From the sequence record LC788705.1: 64,000 nt of DNA. One strand, 5' to 3'. Positions within the stretch are counted from its first letter, which is position 1. Each line of letters begins with the position of its first letter. Positions 2,748 to 43,598 of this stretch are shown piece after piece. Source of the stretch: Escherichia coli phage NG_A1. Below the pieces are notes generated by a model, which saw nothing but the letters and a program-made list of their open reading frames with translations, had not been told where the DNA came from and did no database searches. The position numbers and the translations under genes are program-made.

Positions 2748-3083
2748 ATGAGTACTGAAAATAGAGTTATAGACTTAGTGATAGATGAGAAAGTACCTTA
2801 TGGTCTAATGATGCAATTCTTAGATGTTGATGATAGTACTTATCCACCTACAAATACCCCTGTTAACTTAACGGGGTATTCTCTAAGGGGTACTATAAAG
2901 GCCGGGCTTGATGAGAATGCGGAAACTTTGGCATCTTTTACTACTAAAATTATTGATGCTGCTCAAGGTGCCATAGCTATAAGTTTACCTGTAGAGGCGG
3001 TAGATAATATTGGTGAAAAAGCTACCAAAGAGAGAGAGATAAGTATAACCCTCGCCAACGTTTTGCAGGATACTATGATATAA
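2748..3083 (+). CDS. Small tail-associated protein (possible collar/Ig-like protein)
   Basis: 111-aa ORF tightly packed between tail-tip and fibre genes; no catalytic motif. Confidence 0.4.
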
Positions 3084-14562: not shown

Positions 14563-15056
14563 AATTTTATTCTAAGTCTAGGAATTTCAGGCTCCTCTTG
14601 ATGGACTTGGTAAATAACAGGGCTATTATTTACCAGAATATAGCTTATATAAGCTGGAACATAGGATAATACAAATGGATATGGAACTTTAGCTACATAG
14701 CATTGGTATTTTCCGTTGTAAATTCTAGCTGAATGCAAAACTTTAGAGGTGACAACATCATAAAACGTAGTTTTCTTCCAGTTAATAAGATTTCCATCAG
14801 AATCTATAAATTGGCTACGCTTTGACCCAACTAATTGAGACAACATGGATATTCTGCCCCTAATAGGATAGAGCTTATATGGTAATTCTTTCCGTTTCTC
14901 AAATAGAATAAGCCTACGTTGAGAAAAAGTGCCAGGCAACTTCCTGTTATCTAGTACATATTTATTATATCTTGTTGTAATTACGGAATAATCACCTTCT
15001 TGCTCAATTGATACAAAAGCCCGTAAAGCATATACGGGCAATTTGAAATCAAGCAC
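14559..15056 (-). CDS. Hypothetical protein between polymerase and helicase
   Basis: 165-aa ORF with GTG start; no recognisable motif. Confidence 0.4.
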   Translation of the reverse strand: MLDFKLPVYALRAFVSIEQEGDYSVITTRYNKYVLDNRKLPGTFSQRRLILFEKRKELPYKLYPIRGRISMLSQLVGSKRSQFIDSDGNLINWKKTTFYDVVTSKVLHSARIYNGKYQCYVAKVPYPFVLSYVPAYISYILVNNSPVIYQVHQEEPEIPRLRIKL

Positions 15057-17616
15057 CGAGAATCCTTCTCACGTTATCCAAATCTTTACATACAGCAATA
15101 AACTTATCATCCTTGTATTTGCTATGATCTGGATGCTCTTTATCCATTGCAGCTAGTTTCTTATACTCGAATTCTGCATCAAGTAATACACCCTTGACAT
15201 AACGAGTATATTCATCATCATCAATACAAGCGATTGATGGGTGCTGTTTCTTCATCTTACCACAAGAGTAGTCGCGAGAACCTCCAGCTTCAGAATCTGA
15301 ATCAATACCAATCGGACAGCCAGGAATACTAATACCGCGGTCTTTCTGAATATTACGAATCAGGATTTCATTGTATTGGTCGATCAAATCCTCACGAACA
15401 ATAGCAACTACGGAGTCGTGAACCAGCATAACAATCTTCATCTCTTGTTCTAGGCCAAGAGAAATGATCTCATTATCTGCATCTACAGCACCTAAAAGGA
15501 GACTATCAGAAGAAGCAGACTGAATGATTGCGTTAAATCCAGAACGGATTTCTTCACCTTGAACACCACGGTCTTCGGAGTGGATATTATGCAGACGACG
15601 TTTACGACCAAAGTGACTATAGATAAATCCATGATTCTTGATCTGATCATGGCACTTATCAATCCAACGCTTAAGCTGCGGGAACTGACCGAAGTAAGTT
15701 TCTATATACTCTTTAGCATCTGCAACCGTACACTCTACAAACGGTTCGCCTGTCTTAGCAGCCTGTTCCAGAAGAGCTTCGTTAACAGAATGAGCTACTT
15801 TAGCTGGGCCAGAACCATACAGAATACCAAAGGTGATTGCTTTAGCTGCTTGACGCAGAGCTGGGAATAACTTTTTAACATCACGAGGCTCGCATTGGAG
15901 CTTAAATACCATGTGTGCGATGTTAGAGTGGAAGTCGGGGTATTTATCTGGTTCATTTCTCATGTTGATAAATACTTGTTGCATATTTCTATCACCAGAT
16001 AGAACAGCAGCATAATAAACTTCCGCAGTTGTTAAGTCCCATGCAATTACACGATACCCGGGAGGAGCTACTACACAACCCTTGATAATAGATTCATCAC
16101 GAGGTAACTGTTGCAGGTTCAGTTTACCAGAAGAACTCAGACGACCAGAAGTAGTCATATGTTCATGGAAACCAGTACGAATGCAACCATCTGCATCAAT
16201 ACTCAGAAGAATCTTCTCAACATAAGTAGAGATCAGCTTAGTCAGCTTACGAATCTCTAGTAGAGTCTTAGCAATTGGATGCTGCGTAGACAATTCGTTC
16301 AGAGCTTCTGCATCTGTAGAGTCTGCTCCAGTATCCGTCAATTTACCTGTTGGAGTTAAGCCAACATAATCAAATAGAAGAACACGGAGTTGTTTAACAG
16401 AGTTTGGGTTAAACGCTTCGTTCTGATCTTTCTCTAGCTGAACGACTTCTGGATAAGTATACAGTTTTTCACGAGCTTTATTCAGATTATGGGTTAACTG
16501 GTACTGAGCTTCTTTTAAACGATCAATAGAAATAGGTACACCACGATCCTCAACACGCTGGAGAAATACACAACCAGGCATTAGGACATCATAATACAGA
16601 CTACAAAGTTTTTCATTCTTCTCAATTTTTGGTAAGAAGAAGTTGTGCAAACGTATGGTAGCATCGGTATCTTTCGCAGCGTAAGGCCACATAATATCAA
16701 ACGGAATTAAATCATAGGTGAAATCTTCTTTCTTGATTTTATGTGCTTTGCAGTAATCCTCTTTGAACTTATCTAGTTCGAAGTCATAGTCACCCATATC
16801 GGTATACTTCATTGCTAGAGATTTCAAGCCATGAGTACCACGACGTTCATCTAGAACATAATGCTGCAACATAGTATCATGGAGCCTGCGTTCTTTATGC
16901 GCTTTATCAAAAGTAAGTCCCAGATGGTACTTATAAAAGTGCATATCAAACTTCAGGTTGTGAAAAACAATAGTGTGGTTTTCACTATCCAGAATTTTCT
17001 GGAGATAATATACTGCAACCTCTGTGAGACAATCAGAATCGATATATACACCCTGATACTCTTGGTGAGACATAGAAACACCAAGCAGATAACCATCTCG
17101 ACAGTATAGTGCTGAGGTTTCGGAGTCGAATGCGACAGGTCCGATAACCATATTATACACCATCTTGATATATTCTTCCGCCTCGTCAGGGTCAGTAATA
17201 GGACGGTAATCACCAGCTTTTGCAACCTTCTCACGACCATTGATAATATCGTGGATATTTTCTACTGTTGCATCGAAAACTGGTTTCATTTCAGGTTTAA
17301 AGTGTAACTGGGCTGGGCTGATACTCGCAATCCAGTTAGCATATCCATTATACTCTACACGTTTACCAGTATAGTCACCAATGCCTTTCTTACCTGCGAA
17401 ATACAGGAAAGGTTCAGCACCTACTAGTATAACAAAATCGTAATCATTCGGATCAAATGGGTTTTCTGGTGTTCCAATAGTAATGTGCTTTTTAAGCAAA
17501 CGACCAGATAACTTCTCATTACACATATGGAATACATCAACTTCCTCGCCGTATAGCTGGAAATGTTTATCGTAACGAGTGTTGTTTAGGGCTTTATCAA
17601 CTACTGCGATTTTCAA
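15049..17616 (-). CDS. DNA polymerase, family A with 3'-5' exonuclease domain
   Basis: 855 aa; exo motifs (FDSETS), Pol A motif B (RQAAKAITFGILYGSG) and motif C (VMLVHDSVV); TTG start preceded by GAGGAG. Confidence 0.95.
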   Translation of the reverse strand: MKIAVVDKALNNTRYDKHFQLYGEEVDVFHMCNEKLSGRLLKKHITIGTPENPFDPNDYDFVILVGAEPFLYFAGKKGIGDYTGKRVEYNGYANWIASISPAQLHFKPEMKPVFDATVENIHDIINGREKVAKAGDYRPITDPDEAEEYIKMVYNMVIGPVAFDSETSALYCRDGYLLGVSMSHQEYQGVYIDSDCLTEVAVYYLQKILDSENHTIVFHNLKFDMHFYKYHLGLTFDKAHKERRLHDTMLQHYVLDERRGTHGLKSLAMKYTDMGDYDFELDKFKEDYCKAHKIKKEDFTYDLIPFDIMWPYAAKDTDATIRLHNFFLPKIEKNEKLCSLYYDVLMPGCVFLQRVEDRGVPISIDRLKEAQYQLTHNLNKAREKLYTYPEVVQLEKDQNEAFNPNSVKQLRVLLFDYVGLTPTGKLTDTGADSTDAEALNELSTQHPIAKTLLEIRKLTKLISTYVEKILLSIDADGCIRTGFHEHMTTSGRLSSSGKLNLQQLPRDESIIKGCVVAPPGYRVIAWDLTTAEVYYAAVLSGDRNMQQVFINMRNEPDKYPDFHSNIAHMVFKLQCEPRDVKKLFPALRQAAKAITFGILYGSGPAKVAHSVNEALLEQAAKTGEPFVECTVADAKEYIETYFGQFPQLKRWIDKCHDQIKNHGFIYSHFGRKRRLHNIHSEDRGVQGEEIRSGFNAIIQSASSDSLLLGAVDADNEIISLGLEQEMKIVMLVHDSVVAIVREDLIDQYNEILIRNIQKDRGISIPGCPIGIDSDSEAGGSRDYSCGKMKKQHPSIACIDDDEYTRYVKGVLLDAEFEYKKLAAMDKEHPDHSKYKDDKFIAVCKDLDNVRRILGA

Positions 17617-17677
17617 ATTTAATCTCCTCTTGGTAAGTAAGTATAACTTCAGTGTTTCTTCTCTAACTTACCAATAT

Positions 17678-17706
17678 ATTATACCAAATCTTTAAGCGAT
17701 TCAGCA
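17678..17706 (-). promoter_or_regulatory. Promoter for DNA polymerase embedded in 3' end of primase gene
   Basis: Minus-strand TTGCTG-N17-TATAAT; followed by a 9-bp stem hairpin (17629-17673) in the polymerase leader. Confidence 0.55.
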
Positions 17707-18569
17707 ACTAAAATTTCAATACGTTTTGCTAACATATCAATTTCTTCTTTATTTAAGTCACCGGGGTCTTTACCTTCGGGTAGAAGAAAGTTAGCAACTA
17801 CAGGTGTTAAACGCGTTTTTGTACGAATTAACTTGGCCAATGCTTGTGCAGCCTTATTACCAGAAGCATCATTATCTAGTAAGATAACAACAACTTTTAC
17901 ACCAGCAATAATATAAGGGCTGAACTTATCTGCAATATTATCCGAGGTAAACTGATGTGTACCAAAGCAACAAGAAGCATAGTCTATACCATTATCCTCT
18001 AGGTTCAGCATATCAAAGATACCTTCAACTAGAATAAGAACTGGAGTATTATATCGTACAGGGAAAATCGGTGGTGAAACTTGTTTTGGTTTTACTAAGT
18101 ATTTAGGAGGGGCAGAACTGTTTATAGAACGACCCAAAAATAGGATATTGCGTCCAACAGCATCTGTGATTGGGAATACAATTCTGCCTTCCCAGTCTGC
18201 TTGGTGTTGGAAAGCAAAATATTTCTTCAAGGTCTTAGAACTTATACCTCGGAAATCACCTTCGAAAAGGTAAGCAGATTCAGGAATTGCAAGATTTGTA
18301 GATCCATTCCTAATCTCTGAAATCTTTTTACGTACCTGCGATAGTCTTGGAGACTGTCGGTACTGAGTCTCATTAAAATAATGGTAAATGCTCGGTATAC
18401 CTTTACCGAAGCCACAACTCAAGCAGTGCATAATACCTGTTTCAGGATCAATACGCAAACTTGGATGTTTATCGTCATGATCTGGATTTAAGCAACAGAT
18501 TAAAATATCTCCACCAGTATCTTTATACTCAATTCCCTTAAGATCAAGTAATTCTGTTATTCGACTCAT
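17679..18569 (-). CDS. DNA primase (zinc-finger + TOPRIM)
   Basis: CxxH...CxxC zinc-binding region (CCLNPDHDDKH...CLSCG), TOPRIM motif (LILVEGIFDMLN, DNDASG). Confidence 0.85.
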   Translation of the reverse strand: MSRITELLDLKGIEYKDTGGDILICCLNPDHDDKHPSLRIDPETGIMHCLSCGFGKGIPSIYHYFNETQYRQSPRLSQVRKKISEIRNGSTNLAIPESAYLFEGDFRGISSKTLKKYFAFQHQADWEGRIVFPITDAVGRNILFLGRSINSSAPPKYLVKPKQVSPPIFPVRYNTPVLILVEGIFDMLNLEDNGIDYASCCFGTHQFTSDNIADKFSPYIIAGVKVVVILLDNDASGNKAAQALAKLIRTKTRLTPVVANFLLPEGKDPGDLNKEEIDMLAKRIEILVAESLKDLV

Positions 18570-19087
18570 GAATTTAACTCCTCCAGTGAAGGATACTTAG
18601 TTGGATCAAAAATCTCTTGAACAGCATTTTCTCCATGTAATTGTAGACGTAGTTCATTGGCTTTAGTGACTGCAAGCTTTAGATCTGCATAATTAAAGAG
18701 CCCACCGTGAACTTTTTCTCCCATAGAATTTACTACTCTTACATGCCATTTGTGATCCCGCTTAAACCAGAAAACTCCCAAGTACCCAGATTTACTTCTA
18801 GCTGTTTTATTTCTGCTATTTTCTTGCCGGGTGGATGGCCTAATATTAATCCATCTATTATCCCAAGTAATTCGATTAATATGGTCTACTTCCCCTGGCA
18901 TATATCCTTCCATATATAGGAAGGCTAGTTGGTGTGCAAAGTATAATTTTCTATCTACCTTTATCCGTATGTATCCACTATCTAGAGTACCCGCAATACT
19001 ACCAGCTTTCTGATTGCCTCTAGATACTTTTCTAGTAAACTCCCCAGTCTCTGGGGAGTAGTCAAATAGTTCTGTTATTCTACTCAT
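18566..19087 (-). CDS. HNH homing endonuclease with AP2-like DNA-binding domain
   Basis: HNH motif (EVDHINRITWDNRWINIR...ENSRN) and YLGVFW AP2-like segment; paralog of 42577-43125. Confidence 0.8.
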   Translation of the reverse strand: MSRITELFDYSPETGEFTRKVSRGNQKAGSIAGTLDSGYIRIKVDRKLYFAHQLAFLYMEGYMPGEVDHINRITWDNRWINIRPSTRQENSRNKTARSKSGYLGVFWFKRDHKWHVRVVNSMGEKVHGGLFNYADLKLAVTKANELRLQLHGENAVQEIFDPTKYPSLEELNS

Positions 19088-20556
19088 ATATCGCTGGCCT
19101 GTTCACCTGTTGAATTTTCAGCTTTGTCTTTCTTAGCACGTTTAGATTGAGCCGGCTTATCCTTCTCAATAGGGATAACGAACTCAGCTTCCATTTGAGA
19201 TATATCTTCCATTGCTAGATTGGTAGTGTTATCCATCCGCAGGGTTTCCCAGTTCATTTTAGGCATAAACTTCACGCTATCAGAAGAACGAGTCTTAACG
19301 AAGTCAAACATAATAGCACCTTGACCATTATCAGCTTTTGCAGCATTAAGATTAGCAGCCATGTCTGCGGAATCAAGAATCCCCTTTGACATACGTGTTC
19401 TACCATCTTGATCGATCTGGTAAGGAGCTACGCCAGCCACGTTATGTTTCTGGCAGATGGATTTGAAAGACGAGCTAACAACCATCTGTTCTTTCCAGTC
19501 ATACATATCAATGGTTTTAGAATCTGGAAGTCGGGTTTGGTTAATATAGTCCAGTAAAGCTACTGTAACTTTATCACCATATCTAGCAACTAATTTATTT
19601 AATTCTACGTCAACTGTTGTAATGGACAGTTCAGGGTCATAAACGATAATCATAGGAGTATGTAGTTCATACCCTTCTATTAGCTTACTCTCCATATCGT
19701 AGAAATCACTCATCTTAGCCATTGTATACTGTTTAACGAAGTTATCGAAAAGCTCTTCACCACCGTTGAACATTCTAGCTCTAGTTCTGGCTAATCTCAA
19801 TAGAGCTGCACCTTCTAGAGTATTATTACGCATTGCTAGTGCTGATACCCCGGCTAACATGGCTAGATTACGTCTAAATACTTCATGTTCTTTCATCTCA
19901 ATTGAGAAGTATGGAGCAATATCTCCATTCAAATATTGCTGAACCTGTATGTTTGAACAGATAATGGATTTACCAGTACCACGCCAACCACCAAGCAGTA
20001 ACGTTTCTGTGCGAGCTAAACCAATTTGAGCGTCGAACTCATTACAAATACCAAGAGCGATTAAGTTCAGTTTGGTATCTTCTTCTCTCTGGAAAATACG
20101 CATGTTATCTGCGTTGAATACTTTTCCAGTATTCGTTACTTTCTCTTCTAATTTTAAGTGAAGGGAGGCAACTCGGTTGAGAATTTCTCCCTGATCCAGC
20201 ATTGTTAAATCTTGAAGCACGTCTGTTTCTAGAAGCTTCAGGAATAAATCCTGTGTATATTCAGCCTCTAGGACTTCAAGTGCCTGTTCCATGCTCACTT
20301 CTGGAATTTGAGTGTTAGCTAAGACGACTAGAGCTTGAGAAAGGCGGGCGTTCCTATTAGCTTCAAGCATAAGTGCGTCAATGGACGGCATTGTGTTATA
20401 TTTTTTATAATAATTCTGGACGGCTTGGTAAATTGAGGAGAAAGCGTCATTAAAATGATCTTTATGCAGTTTTGAGAATGTTTCCAATGCTATTTGCTTC
20501 TGTTCGGAAGCTAGAAGCATCTTCAACACTACAGCTTGCACGTTAAACAAGGTCAT
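19084..20556 (-). CDS. Replicative helicase-like ATPase (DnaB/RecA-fold)
   Basis: Walker A GGWRGTGKS, Walker B IIVYDPE; start placed at ATG 20556 with AAGGAG RBS because the longer ORF start lies inside a terminator hairpin. Confidence 0.7.
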   Translation of the reverse strand: MTLFNVQAVVLKMLLASEQKQIALETFSKLHKDHFNDAFSSIYQAVQNYYKKYNTMPSIDALMLEANRNARLSQALVVLANTQIPEVSMEQALEVLEAEYTQDLFLKLLETDVLQDLTMLDQGEILNRVASLHLKLEEKVTNTGKVFNADNMRIFQREEDTKLNLIALGICNEFDAQIGLARTETLLLGGWRGTGKSIICSNIQVQQYLNGDIAPYFSIEMKEHEVFRRNLAMLAGVSALAMRNNTLEGAALLRLARTRARMFNGGEELFDNFVKQYTMAKMSDFYDMESKLIEGYELHTPMIIVYDPELSITTVDVELNKLVARYGDKVTVALLDYINQTRLPDSKTIDMYDWKEQMVVSSSFKSICQKHNVAGVAPYQIDQDGRTRMSKGILDSADMAANLNAAKADNGQGAIMFDFVKTRSSDSVKFMPKMNWETLRMDNTTNLAMEDISQMEAEFVIPIEKDKPAQSKRAKKDKAENSTGEQASDI

Positions 20557-20590
20557 TCTCCTTTGCACGCTTTCGTGCCTTCTAAATGCA

Positions 20591-20628
20591 AAAAGGGGAA
20601 GGAGCATAGCCCCCTCCCCTTAGGTTTA
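20591..20628 (-). terminator. Rho-independent terminator after D5-like gene
   Basis: Minus-strand G/C-rich hairpin (AAGGGGA...TCCCCTT) followed by a T-run. Confidence 0.65.
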
Positions 20629-25925: not shown

Positions 25926-26384
25926 TTAATTTGGATAGAGTTCGGACTTAAAATTAGCCCTAACTTTTTTAGCCTCTTCTATAGTATTGCACTGCTGGTA
26001 CTTACGAATAGACCCTTTCTGCATTAGCACACAGTATTTATCGCCCCTCATGTAGATATTAGGCTCGCCCAACTTATTGTCTTTACGTACATTAATATTG
26101 TGCATTTGCTTAGATCTATTGGAGTCTTCTAAATTCTCTATAAAGTTGCAATCTTTAATCCTGTTTTTGTGGTCTATCTCTTCTGGTATATACCCCTTAT
26201 GATATAAGAATACCAGCTGATGCTCTCCCCAGTGCCTACGCTTAAACCCTATTCTTATATACCCTTTATGTTTACCCCCGGCAAACTTACCTACTAGACT
26301 CTTCTGTCTTGTTTTCTTCCATTTAAGATGGCCTGTTTCAGGATCATACTCAAAAGCCTCCCTAACCTCTTCCTGTGTTATCAT
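25926..26384 (-). CDS. HNH homing endonuclease
   Basis: HNH motif (EEIDHKNRIKDCNFIENL...SNRSKQ). Confidence 0.75.
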   Translation of the reverse strand: MITQEEVREAFEYDPETGHLKWKKTRQKSLVGKFAGGKHKGYIRIGFKRRHWGEHQLVFLYHKGYIPEEIDHKNRIKDCNFIENLEDSNRSKQMHNINVRKDNKLGEPNIYMRGDKYCVLMQKGSIRKYQQCNTIEEAKKVRANFKSELYPN

Positions 26385-42200: not shown

Positions 42201-42584
42201 ATGAGTAAAGAAATTGAATTAGAACAAGCCCTTCTGAATTACTCCAATTACTTGCAGGGTGATAAAGAAACTATTACTAAGGAACAGGTATTACTAATAC
42301 TAGACTCTATCACTTCTAAATTCAGGACTTTAGAAGACTACTACTCTGTAGGCAATGGAGATGAGAAGATAGAGTTATGTCTAAATCTCCTAGAAGATAT
42401 GGGCTGGAATGTGGAAGATCAAGTAGGATATTTAGGTATATCTACAGAAATTCTAGAAAATACAGAGCATGAAAATATACTTGAAGTAAAGAGCAGAAGT
42501 GCTATTCGGTATAATACTTATGGTACAGGTATTACAGGAATAAAAGCATTACTTAGTATAGATATAGGATGGTTAGATGAATAA
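42201..42584 (+). CDS. Hypothetical protein
   Basis: 127-aa ORF with RBS AAAGGA. Confidence 0.5.
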   Translation: MSKEIELEQALLNYSNYLQGDKETITKEQVLLILDSITSKFRTLEDYYSVGNGDEKIELCLNLLEDMGWNVEDQVGYLGISTEILENTEHENILEVKSRSAIRYNTYGTGITGIKALLSIDIGWLDE

Positions 42585-43125
42585 AAAGTTACCTAGCCAA
42601 GAAAGATTAAAAGAATTATTAATCTATGATCCAGATACCGGTATATTTACTAATAAGGTAAGTCGTGGTAGGGGAGGAAAAGCAGGTTCACCCGCTGGAT
42701 ACCTAAGAAAAGATGGCTATATAACTATTAAGATAGATAAAATAGATTATTTAGCACATAGACTAGCCTTTCTATACATGACAGGATCAATACCAGATTT
42801 AATAGACCACAAAAATAGGATTAGGTCAGATAATAGGTGGATAAACCTAAGAGAAGCTACAAGCCAGTCTAATAATAGAAACTGTACCGCATCGAGTAAA
42901 TCTGGATATCTAGGTGTACACTGGAACAAACAACTACAGAAATGGCAAGTACAGGTGATTGATAATAAGGGTAAAAATATTTATGGGGGTGTTTTTGACT
43001 ACTTAGACCTAGAAAGTGCGGTCATAAAGGCTAATGAACTGAGAAAAACACTTCATGGTAGCGAAGCAGTTATAGAAGATTTCTATACTAACTATTACCC
43101 ACCAGTAGAGGAACTTAATAAGTGA
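42577..43125 (+). CDS. HNH homing endonuclease with AP2-like domain
   Basis: HNH motif (DLIDHKNRIRSDNRWINLR...QSNNRN), YLGVHW segment; paralog of 18566-19087. Confidence 0.8.
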   Translation: MNKKLPSQERLKELLIYDPDTGIFTNKVSRGRGGKAGSPAGYLRKDGYITIKIDKIDYLAHRLAFLYMTGSIPDLIDHKNRIRSDNRWINLREATSQSNNRNCTASSKSGYLGVHWNKQLQKWQVQVIDNKGKNIYGGVFDYLDLESAVIKANELRKTLHGSEAVIEDFYTNYYPPVEELNK

Positions 43126-43598
43126 GCGTTTTCCACATTTACACAGATGGTGCTTGTAAGTCTAACCCAGGTCCAGGTGCTTGGGGATTTATTGTCTATG
43201 ATGATAACGATGATCGTTTAGGTTCTAAATCTGGATATAGTCCTAAAACTACAAATAATGAGATGGAACTCACGGCTATTGTAGAGGCTCTACGTTGGTC
43301 AGTTAAAAAAGATAATAGACCAATTGTTATCTATACTGATTCTGCTTATTGCAAAAATGGTATGGAAAGTTGGATGTTTTCTTGGCAAAGGAAAGGCTGG
43401 AAGAAAGCAGATGGTGAAGTTCCTCTTAATCTAGAACTTTGGCAGGAAGCATTTAAATTAACACAACAGTATATCAACTTTCATAATACTAATCCTACCT
43501 TTATTAAGGTTAAAGGACATTCTGGTATTAGTGGTAATGAAGCTGTAGACGCCTTATGTAACACAGTTATTACTGAAGCTGAAATGGCTGAGATGTGA
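43122..43598 (+). CDS. rnh: Ribonuclease H
   Basis: RNase HI motifs (IYTDGACKSNPGPGAWG, ELTAIVEAL, IYTDSAY, GHSG...NE.VD). Confidence 0.85.
   Translation: MSVFHIYTDGACKSNPGPGAWGFIVYDDNDDRLGSKSGYSPKTTNNEMELTAIVEALRWSVKKDNRPIVIYTDSAYCKNGMESWMFSWQRKGWKKADGEVPLNLELWQEAFKLTQQYINFHNTNPTFIKVKGHSGISGNEAVDALCNTVITEAEMAEM

What the first reader, a model, noticed from the sequence alone, without database searches (positions are those of the whole stretch)
17679..19087. Homing-endonuclease insertion footprint: HNH gene upstream of primase repeats the first 21 nt of the primase gene
The HNH gene (18566-19087) and the primase gene both start ATGAGT(A/C)GAATAACAGAA(C/T)TA (MSRITEL), 19 of 21 nt identical, and the HNH stop overlaps the primase start. 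This suggests the endonuclease cassette inserted at the 5' end of the primase gene and duplicated its translation start. A close paralog (42577-43125) sits between thyA and the RNase H gene, and a third HNH gene lies at 25926-26384.
Basis: seen in the sequence. Interest (0 to 1): 0.5.

Follow-up and report, generated by a model that had tools for sequence, protein, structure and literature searches.

The report
Recombination scar on a phage homing-endonuclease gene
In this T5-like phage, an optional selfish nuclease gene between the helicase and primase genes has had its first 30 bases swapped for the first 21 bases of the primase gene, a one-off recombination scar and not the mark left when such genes insert.

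Summary
On the minus strand, the HNH gene (18566-19087) and the primase gene (17679-18569) both begin ATGAGTNGAATAACAGAANTA, 19 of 21 bases identical, against 0.00 matches expected by chance. Each start overlaps the preceding stop as ATGA.

The window is a T5-like phage. The HNH gene is the homologue of T5 hegJ, an optional free-standing HNH-AP2 homing endonuclease gene (HEG). It sits at this junction in 71 of 445 related phage records.

Every other carrier I read starts the gene with its own 5' end, ATGATAACACAGGAA... (MITQERLKELFDY), and has no repeat. The window's first 21 bases are identical to the primase start of phages that lack the gene. The joint lies in a 10-of-12 patch of microhomology, AGAACTnnTTGA. 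The repeat is therefore a derived chimeric junction between a gene-less and a gene-carrying allele, not a target-site duplication. It was found nowhere else except in one protein record, E. coli phage NG_A1, which is probably this same genome.

Carriers also have at least 13 synonymous changes confined to primase bases 7-79. This is probably the nuclease's recoded, immune target.

This is an ordinary kind of element with an unusual scar. Interest is modest.

The parts
19084..20607 (-). Replicative DnaB-like helicase gene (T5 D6 homologue). Its stop overlaps the HNH start as ATGA.
   Evidence: ORF; Pfam DnaB_C; annotated D6/helicase in relatives.
18566..19087 (-). Free-standing HNH-AP2 homing endonuclease gene, homologue of T5 hegJ (P-TflX). 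It is 173 aa here, against 176-177 aa in relatives.
   Evidence: The AlphaFold model has pLDDT 91.9.
19067..19087 (-). Upstream copy of the 21-nt primase start, ATGAGTAGAATAACAGAACTA. It is identical to the primase start of all 24 endonuclease-less loci examined.
19062..19073 (-). Recombination joint: the microhomology patch AGAACTATTTGA. The native HNH gene has AGAACTGTTTGA and the gene-less primase has AGAACTACTTGA. Primase-derived sequence ends at 19067 and HNH-derived sequence begins at 19066.
   Evidence: three-way comparison of the window, 8sent1748 and SP3.
18812..18943 (-). HNH (His-Me finger) catalytic motif, residues 49-92, including the invariant D68-H69 and three invariant Asn residues.
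   Evidence: Pfam HNH_3 covers the full profile. The family profile matches I-HmuI, PDB 1u3e, E 3.7e-4.
18623..18781 (-). AP2/ERF-like DNA-binding domain, residues about 103-155 (three strands and a long helix).
   Evidence: Secondary structure from the model. Foldseek matches AtERF1 (1gcc: probability 1.00, target TM 0.75, rmsd 2.1 A) and WRINKLED1. Distant homologues carry Pfam AP2. The paralogue has a weak AP2 match, E 0.075.
18578..18584 (-). Shine-Dalgarno sequence GGAGGAG for the primase gene. It is formed by the Glu-Glu codons of the conserved C-terminal tail L-E-E-L-N-S and lies 8 nt before the primase ATG.
   Evidence: Read from the sequence. Its function is inferred.
18549..18569 (-). 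Downstream copy of the 21-mer, the true primase start ATGAGTCGAATAACAGAATTA. This is the allele linked to endonuclease carriers.
18491..18563 (-). Recoded patch, primase nt 7-79. It holds 13 or more synonymous differences that separate carrier alleles from gene-less alleles, and is the predicted recognition or cleavage region, made immune in carriers.
17679..18569 (-). DnaG-type primase gene (zinc ribbon plus Toprim).
   Evidence: The MSRI..LL start is conserved down to relatives with 62-72% identical primases.
42577..43125 (+). Paralogous HNH-AP2 endonuclease gene, 57% identical, with the native N-terminus ...QERLKELLIYDPDTG. It is inserted seamlessly before the RNase H gene.
25926..26384 (-). 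Third, more distant HNH gene (33% identical), starting MITQEEVREAFEYDPETG.

Best explanation
The window comes from a T5-like phage. Between its helicase and primase genes sits the T5 hegJ-type free-standing homing endonuclease gene, which encodes an N-terminal sheet, an HNH catalytic motif and an AP2-like DNA-binding domain. The gene is optional in this phage group. In phages without it, the helicase stop overlaps the primase ATG. In carriers, the endonuclease gene takes over that ATGA overlap and supplies its own Shine-Dalgarno sequence and ATGA overlap for the primase gene. The repeated 21-nt start is specific to this genome. The first 30 nt of the native endonuclease gene (ATGATAACACAGGAACGACTAAAAGAACTG, MITQERLKEL) were replaced by the first 21 nt of a gene-less primase allele (ATGAGTAGAATAACAGAACTA, MSRITEL). 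The crossover fell in a chance patch of similarity between the two 5' ends (AGAACTnnTTGA, 10 of 12). Shown: the optional status of the gene, the chimeric structure, the allele identity of each copy, and the microhomology. Inferred: the event was recombination between a gene-less and a gene-carrying genome in a mixed infection. It most likely marks the left edge of a conversion tract formed while a break in the gene-less allele was being repaired. Also inferred: the enzyme recognises the first 70-80 nt of the gene-less primase gene, which carriers have recoded synonymously. The chimeric protein keeps the R-x-x-E-L-F spacing of the native N-terminal helix, so it is probably still active.
For: 71 of 445 related records carry the gene at this junction, and the gene-less records join helicase and primase directly. 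T5 itself annotates hegJ here. The 20 carriers whose gene start I read have the native start and no repeat: 10 phage-collection loci and 10 IMG/VR loci. All 71 carriers in the phage collection are 9-12 nt longer across the junction, with a best full-length match of 86.7%. The chimeric junction has 0 exact hits in IMG/VR, JGI metagenome contigs and GTDB genome contigs. Only 1 of 27 members of the protein cluster is the 173-aa form. The upstream 21-mer is identical to all 24 gene-less alleles, while the downstream copy has the carrier-linked C7 and T19. The native start is shared by paralogues at other loci. The primase start is ancestral, being kept in primases only 62-72% identical. At least 13 synonymous sites within primase nt 7-79 separate carriers from non-carriers. 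The last 300 nt of the helicase gene and the other 810 nt of the primase gene have none. Different carrier lineages use different wobble changes at nt 51-75. Enzyme family: HNH_3, I-HmuI, AP2 fold. Junctions at microhomology from illegitimate double-strand-break repair during homing were shown experimentally in T4 (Parker et al. 1999, as summarised in PMC2988022).
Against: No enzymology exists for this enzyme, so cleavage, the target site and any link between the scar and a break are all inferred. The helicase flank is too conserved to show a switch of parentage at the joint: 0-3 mismatches per 100 nt to carriers and non-carriers alike. The chimera is known from a single genome, and the NG_A1 protein record is probably that same genome, so neither its fitness nor an assembly error can be judged from independent copies. 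A few carrier lineages (SP01, NR01) also have A7 and C19 downstream, so an intragenomic source is not strictly excluded.
Confidence: 0.75

Rival explanations
1. Intragenomic origin. In a carrier with the native start, short-patch gene conversion or a replication template switch copied the genome's own downstream primase start onto the 5' end of the endonuclease gene, using the ATGA and GAACT microhomologies.
For: The two sites are only 518 nt apart and share ATGA, ATAACA and GAACT/TTGA patches. Some carrier lineages (SP01, NR01 types) have a downstream copy with A7 and C19.
Against: The window's downstream copy and the next 90 nt are of the 8sent1748 type (C7, T19). The upstream copy has A7 and C19, exactly the allele of the roughly 83% of relatives that lack the gene. 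This scenario therefore needs two extra changes or a later replacement of the downstream segment.
Confidence: 0.12
2. The endonuclease cassette inserted at the 5' end of the primase gene and the insertion itself duplicated the translation start, as a target-site duplication or insertion footprint.
For: The repeat flanks the insert exactly, and both copies are in frame with ATGA overlaps. The gene is truly optional at this site.
Against: No other carrier has the repeat: 20 gene starts read directly and all 71 collection records 9-12 nt longer. The window's gene is nested (98% identity) within a cluster that has the native start. The native start is shared with paralogues at other loci. Homing by break repair does not create target duplications (established knowledge of homing endonucleases).
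Confidence: 0.04
3. Assembly or sequencing artefact. A mixed lysate of carrier and non-carrier phages was assembled into a false chimeric contig.
For: The junction is a singleton. Carrier and non-carrier phages do co-occur in nature.
Against: The two parental sequences share only 6 exact bases at the joint, far below any assembler k-mer. The reading frame is preserved and the N-terminal R-x-x-E-L-F motif is retained. A GenBank protein (BEU75675.1, phage NG_A1) has the identical 173-aa sequence, although it may come from the same assembly.
Confidence: 0.05
4. Adaptive capture. The endonuclease gene took the primase start because this gives an advantage, such as matched translation initiation, or 21-nt direct repeats that allow precise excision.
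For: The chimera keeps an intact frame and a predicted N-terminal helix. Direct repeats of 19 of 21 nt flank the 518-nt body, so a deletion between them would restore a gene-less, recoded primase (inference).
Against: There is only one occurrence and no spread. The ribosome-binding context upstream of the ATG is the same in the native and chimeric forms. No gene-less allele carrying the recoded patch was seen among 24 loci or among the top rows.
Confidence: 0.04

Closest known systems
T5 hegJ (putative H-N-H endonuclease P-TflX, T5.120), and the T5 F-Tfl HNH endonucleases (Akulenko et al. 2004, cited in PMC10644984 and PMC2330249)
   Same: Same locus, between D6 helicase and primase. Same family (HNH_3). 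Same ATGA overlaps with both neighbours. The presence or absence of such genes is already recognised as the main source of differences among T5-like genomes (PMC10644984).
   Different: T5 hegJ is 177 aa, only about 66% identical, and starts MITQERLKELFDY. The window's gene belongs to the 176-aa 8sent1748/mar003J3 lineage and has the primase-derived start MSRITEL. No biochemical data for hegJ turned up in the full-text library searched here.
Illegitimate double-strand-break repair during homing in phage T4 (Parker, Belisle and Belfort 1999, summarised in PMC2988022)
   Same: A mobile endonuclease element is acquired with extensive homology on one side and a recombination junction at a short microhomology on the other. 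The window has long helicase homology on the left and a 10-of-12 microhomology joint.
   Different: The T4 junctions were made experimentally with truncated homology and an intron-encoded enzyme. Here the junction is a natural product in a T5-like phage. It lies inside the endonuclease ORF itself, stays in frame and yields a chimeric protein. Dependence on a break is not shown.
Intronless homing of free-standing endonucleases in T-even phages (SegB-G, MobE; PMC2988022, PMC2790892, PMC2330249)
   Same: A free-standing endonuclease gene lies between conserved essential genes and is sporadically distributed. Flanking sequence differs between carrier and non-carrier alleles.
   Different: According to the review, T4 free-standing enzymes cut hundreds to thousands of bp from their genes. 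Here the allele-specific recoding starts 7 nt from the insertion point, which implies a target directly beside the gene, as for intron-encoded enzymes. The family is HNH-AP2, not GIY-YIG or the T4 mob type.
I-HmuI (SPO1 intron-encoded HNH nicking endonuclease, PDB 1u3e)
   Same: The catalytic His-Me finger is homologous (profile E 3.7e-4 over residues 36-103).
   Different: I-HmuI is intron-encoded and uses a different C-terminal DNA-binding module. The window's enzyme is free-standing and has an AP2-like domain. Whether it nicks or makes double-strand cuts is unknown.

Membership tests
Free-standing HNH homing endonuclease gene | HNH / His-Me finger catalytic motif with its conserved His and Asn residues | tested here: met
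   Pfam HNH_3 E 5.6e-12, covering the full profile. D68, H69, N77, N81 and N93 are invariant. The family profile matches I-HmuI, 1u3e.
Free-standing HNH homing endonuclease gene | A separate sequence-specific DNA-binding module | tested here: met
   Residues about 103-155 fold as an AP2/ERF domain in a model with pLDDT 91.9. Foldseek gives 1gcc probability 1.00 and target TM 0.75.
Free-standing HNH homing endonuclease gene | Sporadic presence or absence at one fixed site between conserved genes in close relatives | tested here: met
   71 of 445 phage records and 10 of 30 close IMG/VR loci carry it. The insertion point is identical to the base.
Free-standing HNH homing endonuclease gene | The carrier allele differs from the gene-less allele at the presumed target, giving self-immunity | tested here: met
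   At least 13 synonymous differences confined to primase nt 7-79, with none in 300 nt of helicase or the rest of the primase gene. This is consistent with immunity, but cleavage was not assayed.
Free-standing HNH homing endonuclease gene | Site-specific cleavage or nicking of the gene-less allele, and preferential inheritance in mixed infection | not testable with these tools
   This needs purified enzyme and phage crosses. The paper searches found no such data for hegJ.
   All 20 other carriers whose gene start was read lack the repeat. All 71 carrier records are 9-12 nt longer at the junction, and the best match is 86.7%.
   The copies differ at 2 of 21 bases. The upstream copy equals the gene-less allele and the downstream copy equals the carrier-linked allele. 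This points to two parental sources but does not prove it.
Illegitimate (microhomology) repair junction arising in homing | A junction between non-homologous sequences at a short microhomology, with long homology on the other side | tested here: met
   AGAACTnnTTGA, 10 of 12 with 6 exact bases, at the joint. The helicase flank is 97-100% identical across relatives.
Illegitimate (microhomology) repair junction arising in homing | The event depends on an endonuclease-induced break in the recipient | not testable with these tools
   This needs crosses with an active and a catalytically dead enzyme.

The most novel reading that the evidence does not exclude
The chimeric start is not a neutral scar but a functional innovation. 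By taking the first seven codons of its target gene, the endonuclease gene becomes flanked by 21-nt direct repeats. These would let it be deleted precisely, leaving a gene-less but cleavage-immune primase allele. The result would be a reversible, excisable homing element. Alternatively, the borrowed start could tune the enzyme's translation to that of the replisome genes.
Probability: 0.05. Interest if true: 0.5.

Novelty: new member of a known kind. Interest (0 to 1): 0.3.

Why it matters
The finding gives a natural, base-resolved example of how a homing endonuclease gene and its host gene exchange sequence at their boundary. The crossover is in frame, lies at a 10-of-12 microhomology and produces a chimeric enzyme. 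Junctions of this kind have so far been documented mainly in engineered T4 crosses.

The comparison also yields a concrete, testable prediction for an uncharacterised T5 enzyme. Its target should lie in the first 70-80 nt of the primase gene of phages that lack the endonuclease gene. The synonymous recoding seen in carriers should protect them.

For genome annotation the lesson is practical. A repeated gene start next to a mobile nuclease gene need not be an insertion footprint, and presence/absence comparison across relatives settles the question quickly.

Tried and rejected
1. I looked for a change of parentage in the helicase flank. Sliding identity and 100-nt mismatch bins against 14 relatives were uninformative, because carriers and non-carriers are equally close to the window (0-3 mismatches per 100 nt).

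2. I searched for a second occurrence of the chimeric junction. The phage collection gave a best full-length match of 86.7%. Exact degenerate-pattern scans of IMG/VR, JGI metagenome contigs and GTDB genome contigs each gave 0 hits.

3. My first exact protein look-up used coordinates shifted by one codon (protein 1), so its 'not in the collection' result is void. The cluster listing from the same call did reveal the 173-aa member P0038 (phage NG_A1), which is identical to the window's protein. No contig for it is on record.

4. I searched for gene-less alleles that carry the recoded patch, which would be relics of gene loss. None occurred among 24 gene-less loci. The top 25 rows of a dedicated BLAST search were all carriers. 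The remaining rows were not inspected, so this is not exhaustive.

5. Pfam at a relaxed threshold did not detect AP2 in the window's protein. The AP2 assignment rests on the structure model and fold search.

6. Paper searches for hegJ, P-TflX and F-TflVIII returned no study of this particular gene, and nothing was found on phage NG_A1.

7. I considered whether the chimeric form could be ancestral. I rejected this because the native start is shared by paralogues at other loci, and the window's gene is nested within a cluster that has the native start.
Full report
**What is in the window**

On the minus strand, four genes run head to tail.
- A DnaB-like helicase, 19084-20607.
- A 173-aa HNH protein, 18566-19087.
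- A 296-aa DnaG-type primase, 17679-18569.
- An 855-aa DNA polymerase, 15049-17616.

Pfam confirms DnaB_C, HNH_3 (E 5.6e-12) and zinc-ribbon/Toprim for the first three. The HNH gene starts ATGAGTAGAATAACAGAACTA and the primase gene starts ATGAGTCGAATAACAGAATTA. This is 19 of 21 identical bases, and both encode MSRITEL. Allowing three mismatches, the 21-mer occurs only at these two places in the 64 kb window, against 0.00 expected from shuffles. The helicase stop/HNH start and the HNH stop/primase start both overlap as ATGA.

**Where it comes from**

Megablast of the region against 50,697 phage records finds 445 T5-like phages (Tequintavirus and Epseptimavirus) at 86-98% identity. In T5 itself, the gene between D6 (helicase) and pri (primase) is annotated hegJ, 'putative H-N-H-endonuclease P-TflX'. 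The window's HNH protein is identical to GenBank BEU75675.1 of Escherichia coli phage NG_A1. That phage is probably the source of the window.

**The gene is optional**

Only 71 of the 445 records cover the HNH part of the query. The others match in two pieces that abut, spanning 1583 nt instead of about 2110. In the five gene-less genomes I fetched from that collection (SP3, DT57C, Stitch, Lindwurm, misterkot), the helicase stop overlaps the primase ATG directly...GCGATATATGAGTAGAATAACAGAACTACTTGAT.... Among 30 close relatives in IMG/VR, 10 carry the gene and 20 do not. The literature already names homing endonuclease genes as the main source of differences between T5-like genomes (PMC10644984).

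**The repeat is not an insertion footprint**

I read the gene start in 20 other carriers, and none has a repeat.
- Ten are from the phage collection: T5, 8sent1748, Gostya9, FGS029, polluks, SP01, ESCO30, Tennessee, mar003J3 and T5_ev219.
- Ten are IMG/VR loci.

All of them start the gene with ATGATAACACAGGAA(A/C)G(G/A)CTAAAAGA(G/A)(T/C)T(A/G)TTTGA, encoding MITQERLKELFDY. All 71 carrier records are 9-12 nt longer than the window across the junction, and the best full-length match to the window's junction is 86.7%.

The MITQE...RLKEL start is native to this protein family. The paralogue at 42577-43125 has ...QERLKELLIYDPDTG. The distant third HNH gene at 25926-26384 starts MITQEEVREAFEYDPETG. 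Fourteen database homologues share the motif.

The window's protein is 98% identical to the representative of a 27-member cluster. In that cluster, 26 members are 176 aa with the native start, and one (NG_A1) is the 173-aa form. Conversely, MSRITELL is native to the primase. It persists in relatives whose primases are only 62-72% identical. The primase-like start on the HNH gene is therefore a recent, derived replacement.

**Anatomy of the chimera**

The window's first 21 nt are identical to the primase start of all 24 gene-less loci examined, with A at position 7 and C at position 19. The window's own downstream copy carries the carrier-linked C7 and T19.

From position 22 onward, the sequence (TTTGACTACTCCCCAG...) matches the HNH gene of the 8sent1748 lineage. 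That match runs at about 99% identity through the rest of the gene and the primase.

The joint lies in a patch where the two parents happen to resemble each other.
- Native HNH gene: AAAGAACTGTTTGAC.
- Gene-less primase: ACAGAACTACTTGAT.
- Window: ACAGAACTATTTGAC.

This is 10 of 12 identical bases across AGAACTnnTTGA, with 6 exact bases just before the switch. Thirty nucleotides were replaced by 21, which is why the protein is 3 residues shorter. The replacement preserves the spacing R-x-x-E-L-F (ERLKELF becomes SRITELF). The AlphaFold model (pLDDT 91.9) still predicts a short N-terminal helix at residues 2-7.

**Uniqueness**

A degenerate pattern for the chimeric junction has no exact match in IMG/VR, JGI metagenome contigs or GTDB genome contigs. 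An assembly artefact is unlikely because the parents share only six exact bases at the joint. Only reads can exclude it.

**Most likely mechanism**

The simplest account is recombination between a gene-less genome and a gene-carrying genome of the 8sent1748 type in a mixed infection. The gene-less genome supplied the left side, up to primase nt 21. The crossover resolved at the microhomology.

Junctions of exactly this kind, with extensive homology on one side and microhomology on the other, were obtained experimentally in T4 as 'illegitimate double-strand-break repair' during endonuclease-driven homing (Parker et al. 1999, summarised in PMC2988022). I therefore regard the repeat as a probable homing scar. 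It would mark the left end of a conversion tract that, unusually, ended inside the endonuclease gene.

That the event involved a break is inference. Ordinary recombination would give the same product. The helicase flank is too conserved to reveal parentage.

An intragenomic copy from the downstream primase start is less parsimonious, because the two copies carry different allele states.

**Predicted target**

I compared carriers with non-carriers: 12 against 22 loci in the site-by-site count, or 10 against 21 unique sequences. Thirteen sites with a frequency difference of at least 0.5 all lie in primase nt 7-69. Further carrier-specific changes extend to nt 79. The last 300 nt of the helicase gene and the remaining roughly 810 nt of the primase gene have none.

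All these changes are synonymous, so both groups encode MSRITELLDLKGIEYKDTGGDILICCLNPD. The only exception is an E-to-D change at residue 14 in the two carriers of the polluks type (polluks and L014). Gene-less alleles are almost invariant in this stretch, even across genera. Different carrier lineages carry different wobble substitutions at nt 51-75.

This is the expected signature of a nuclease target that has been recoded to immunity in genomes that carry the nuclease. It predicts that the enzyme recognises the first 70-80 nt of the gene-less primase gene, directly beside its own insertion point. That differs from T4 free-standing enzymes, which cut far from their genes.

**The enzyme**

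Three lines of evidence define the architecture.
- HNH_3 spans residues 49-92.
- The family profile matches the nicking enzyme I-HmuI, PDB 1u3e, E 3.7e-4.
- Residues about 103-155 fold as an AP2/ERF DNA-binding domain. Foldseek gives AtERF1 probability 1.00 and target TM 0.75, and WRINKLED1 probability 0.98.

Distant homologues carry Pfam AP2. Whether the enzyme nicks or cuts both strands is unknown. One relative's annotation calls it an 'HNH nicking homing endonuclease', but that is annotation, not a test.

**Comparison with what is known, and novelty**

The element is a known kind: a free-standing HNH homing endonuclease gene, annotated in T5 as hegJ. The chimeric start has not been described in anything I could find. 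It is a natural instance of a known process and occurs in a single genome. I rate it a new member of a known kind, with interest 0.3.

The most novel reading not excluded is that the borrowed start is functional, through precise excision between the 21-nt repeats or through tuning of translation. I give that a probability of about 0.05.

**Side observations**

- The family's conserved C-terminal tail (L/V-E-E-L-N-x) is encoded as GAGGAG or GAGGAA, 8-9 nt before the start of the downstream host gene, at both loci in the window. GAG makes up only 30% of Glu codons in the window's ORFs. The endonuclease gene thus seems to bring a Shine-Dalgarno sequence for the gene it displaces.
- Phage misterkot, which lacks the endonuclease gene, has a 368-nt frame-breaking deletion in the primase gene. 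Its left breakpoint, at nt 37/38, lies inside the predicted target patch.
- The HNH protein of phage vB_Sen_I1 is a hybrid. Its nuclease half is of the T5 type and its AP2 half is of the window type.

Noticed in passing
window 18570-18590 (-) and 43105-43125 (+): The HNH family's conserved C-terminal tail (L/V-E-E-L-N-x) is encoded as GAGGAG or GAGGAA, 8-9 nt before the start of the downstream host gene (primase ATG, RNase H GTG), with ATGA or GTGA stop/start overlap. GAG is only 30% of Glu codons in the window's ORFs. The tail may be conserved partly as a portable Shine-Dalgarno sequence for the displaced gene.
   Followed up: partly
L011 (Salmonella phage misterkot MT074453.1) 2914-3000: This phage lacks the endonuclease gene and has a 368-nt frame-breaking deletion of primase nt 38-405, with a CA microhomology. 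The left breakpoint lies inside the patch predicted to be the endonuclease target. It could be an end-joining scar of a cut or an assembly error.
   Followed up: partly
P0002 (Salmonella phage vB_Sen_I1 HNH, 177 aa), same locus as window 18566-19087: The protein is a hybrid. Residues about 1-105 match the T5-type enzyme (P0003) and residues about 106-177 are identical to the window type. This suggests recombination between the nuclease and AP2 domains of different endonuclease alleles at one site.
   Followed up: no
window 42577-43125 (+), with 42201-42584 and 43122-43598: The paralogous HNH-AP2 gene (57% identical) is inserted seamlessly. Its ATG overlaps the end of a 127-aa ORF of unknown function by 8 nt, and its stop overlaps the GTG start of the RNase H gene.
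   Followed up: partly
L007 3360-3689, L010 2831-3160 (no counterpart in window 17617-17678): Some relatives (FGS029, Lindwurm, slur09, SP15) carry an extra 110-aa ORF of unknown function between the primase and polymerase genes. The window and T5 lack it. This is a second insertion/deletion polymorphism in the replication module.
   Followed up: no
window 18891-18893 (-), HNH residue 65: The window's enzyme has Gly at residue 65 (MPGEVDH), three residues before the catalytic Asp-His. Most of the aligned relatives have Glu there; a few have Asp or Val. The effect on activity is unknown.
   Followed up: no
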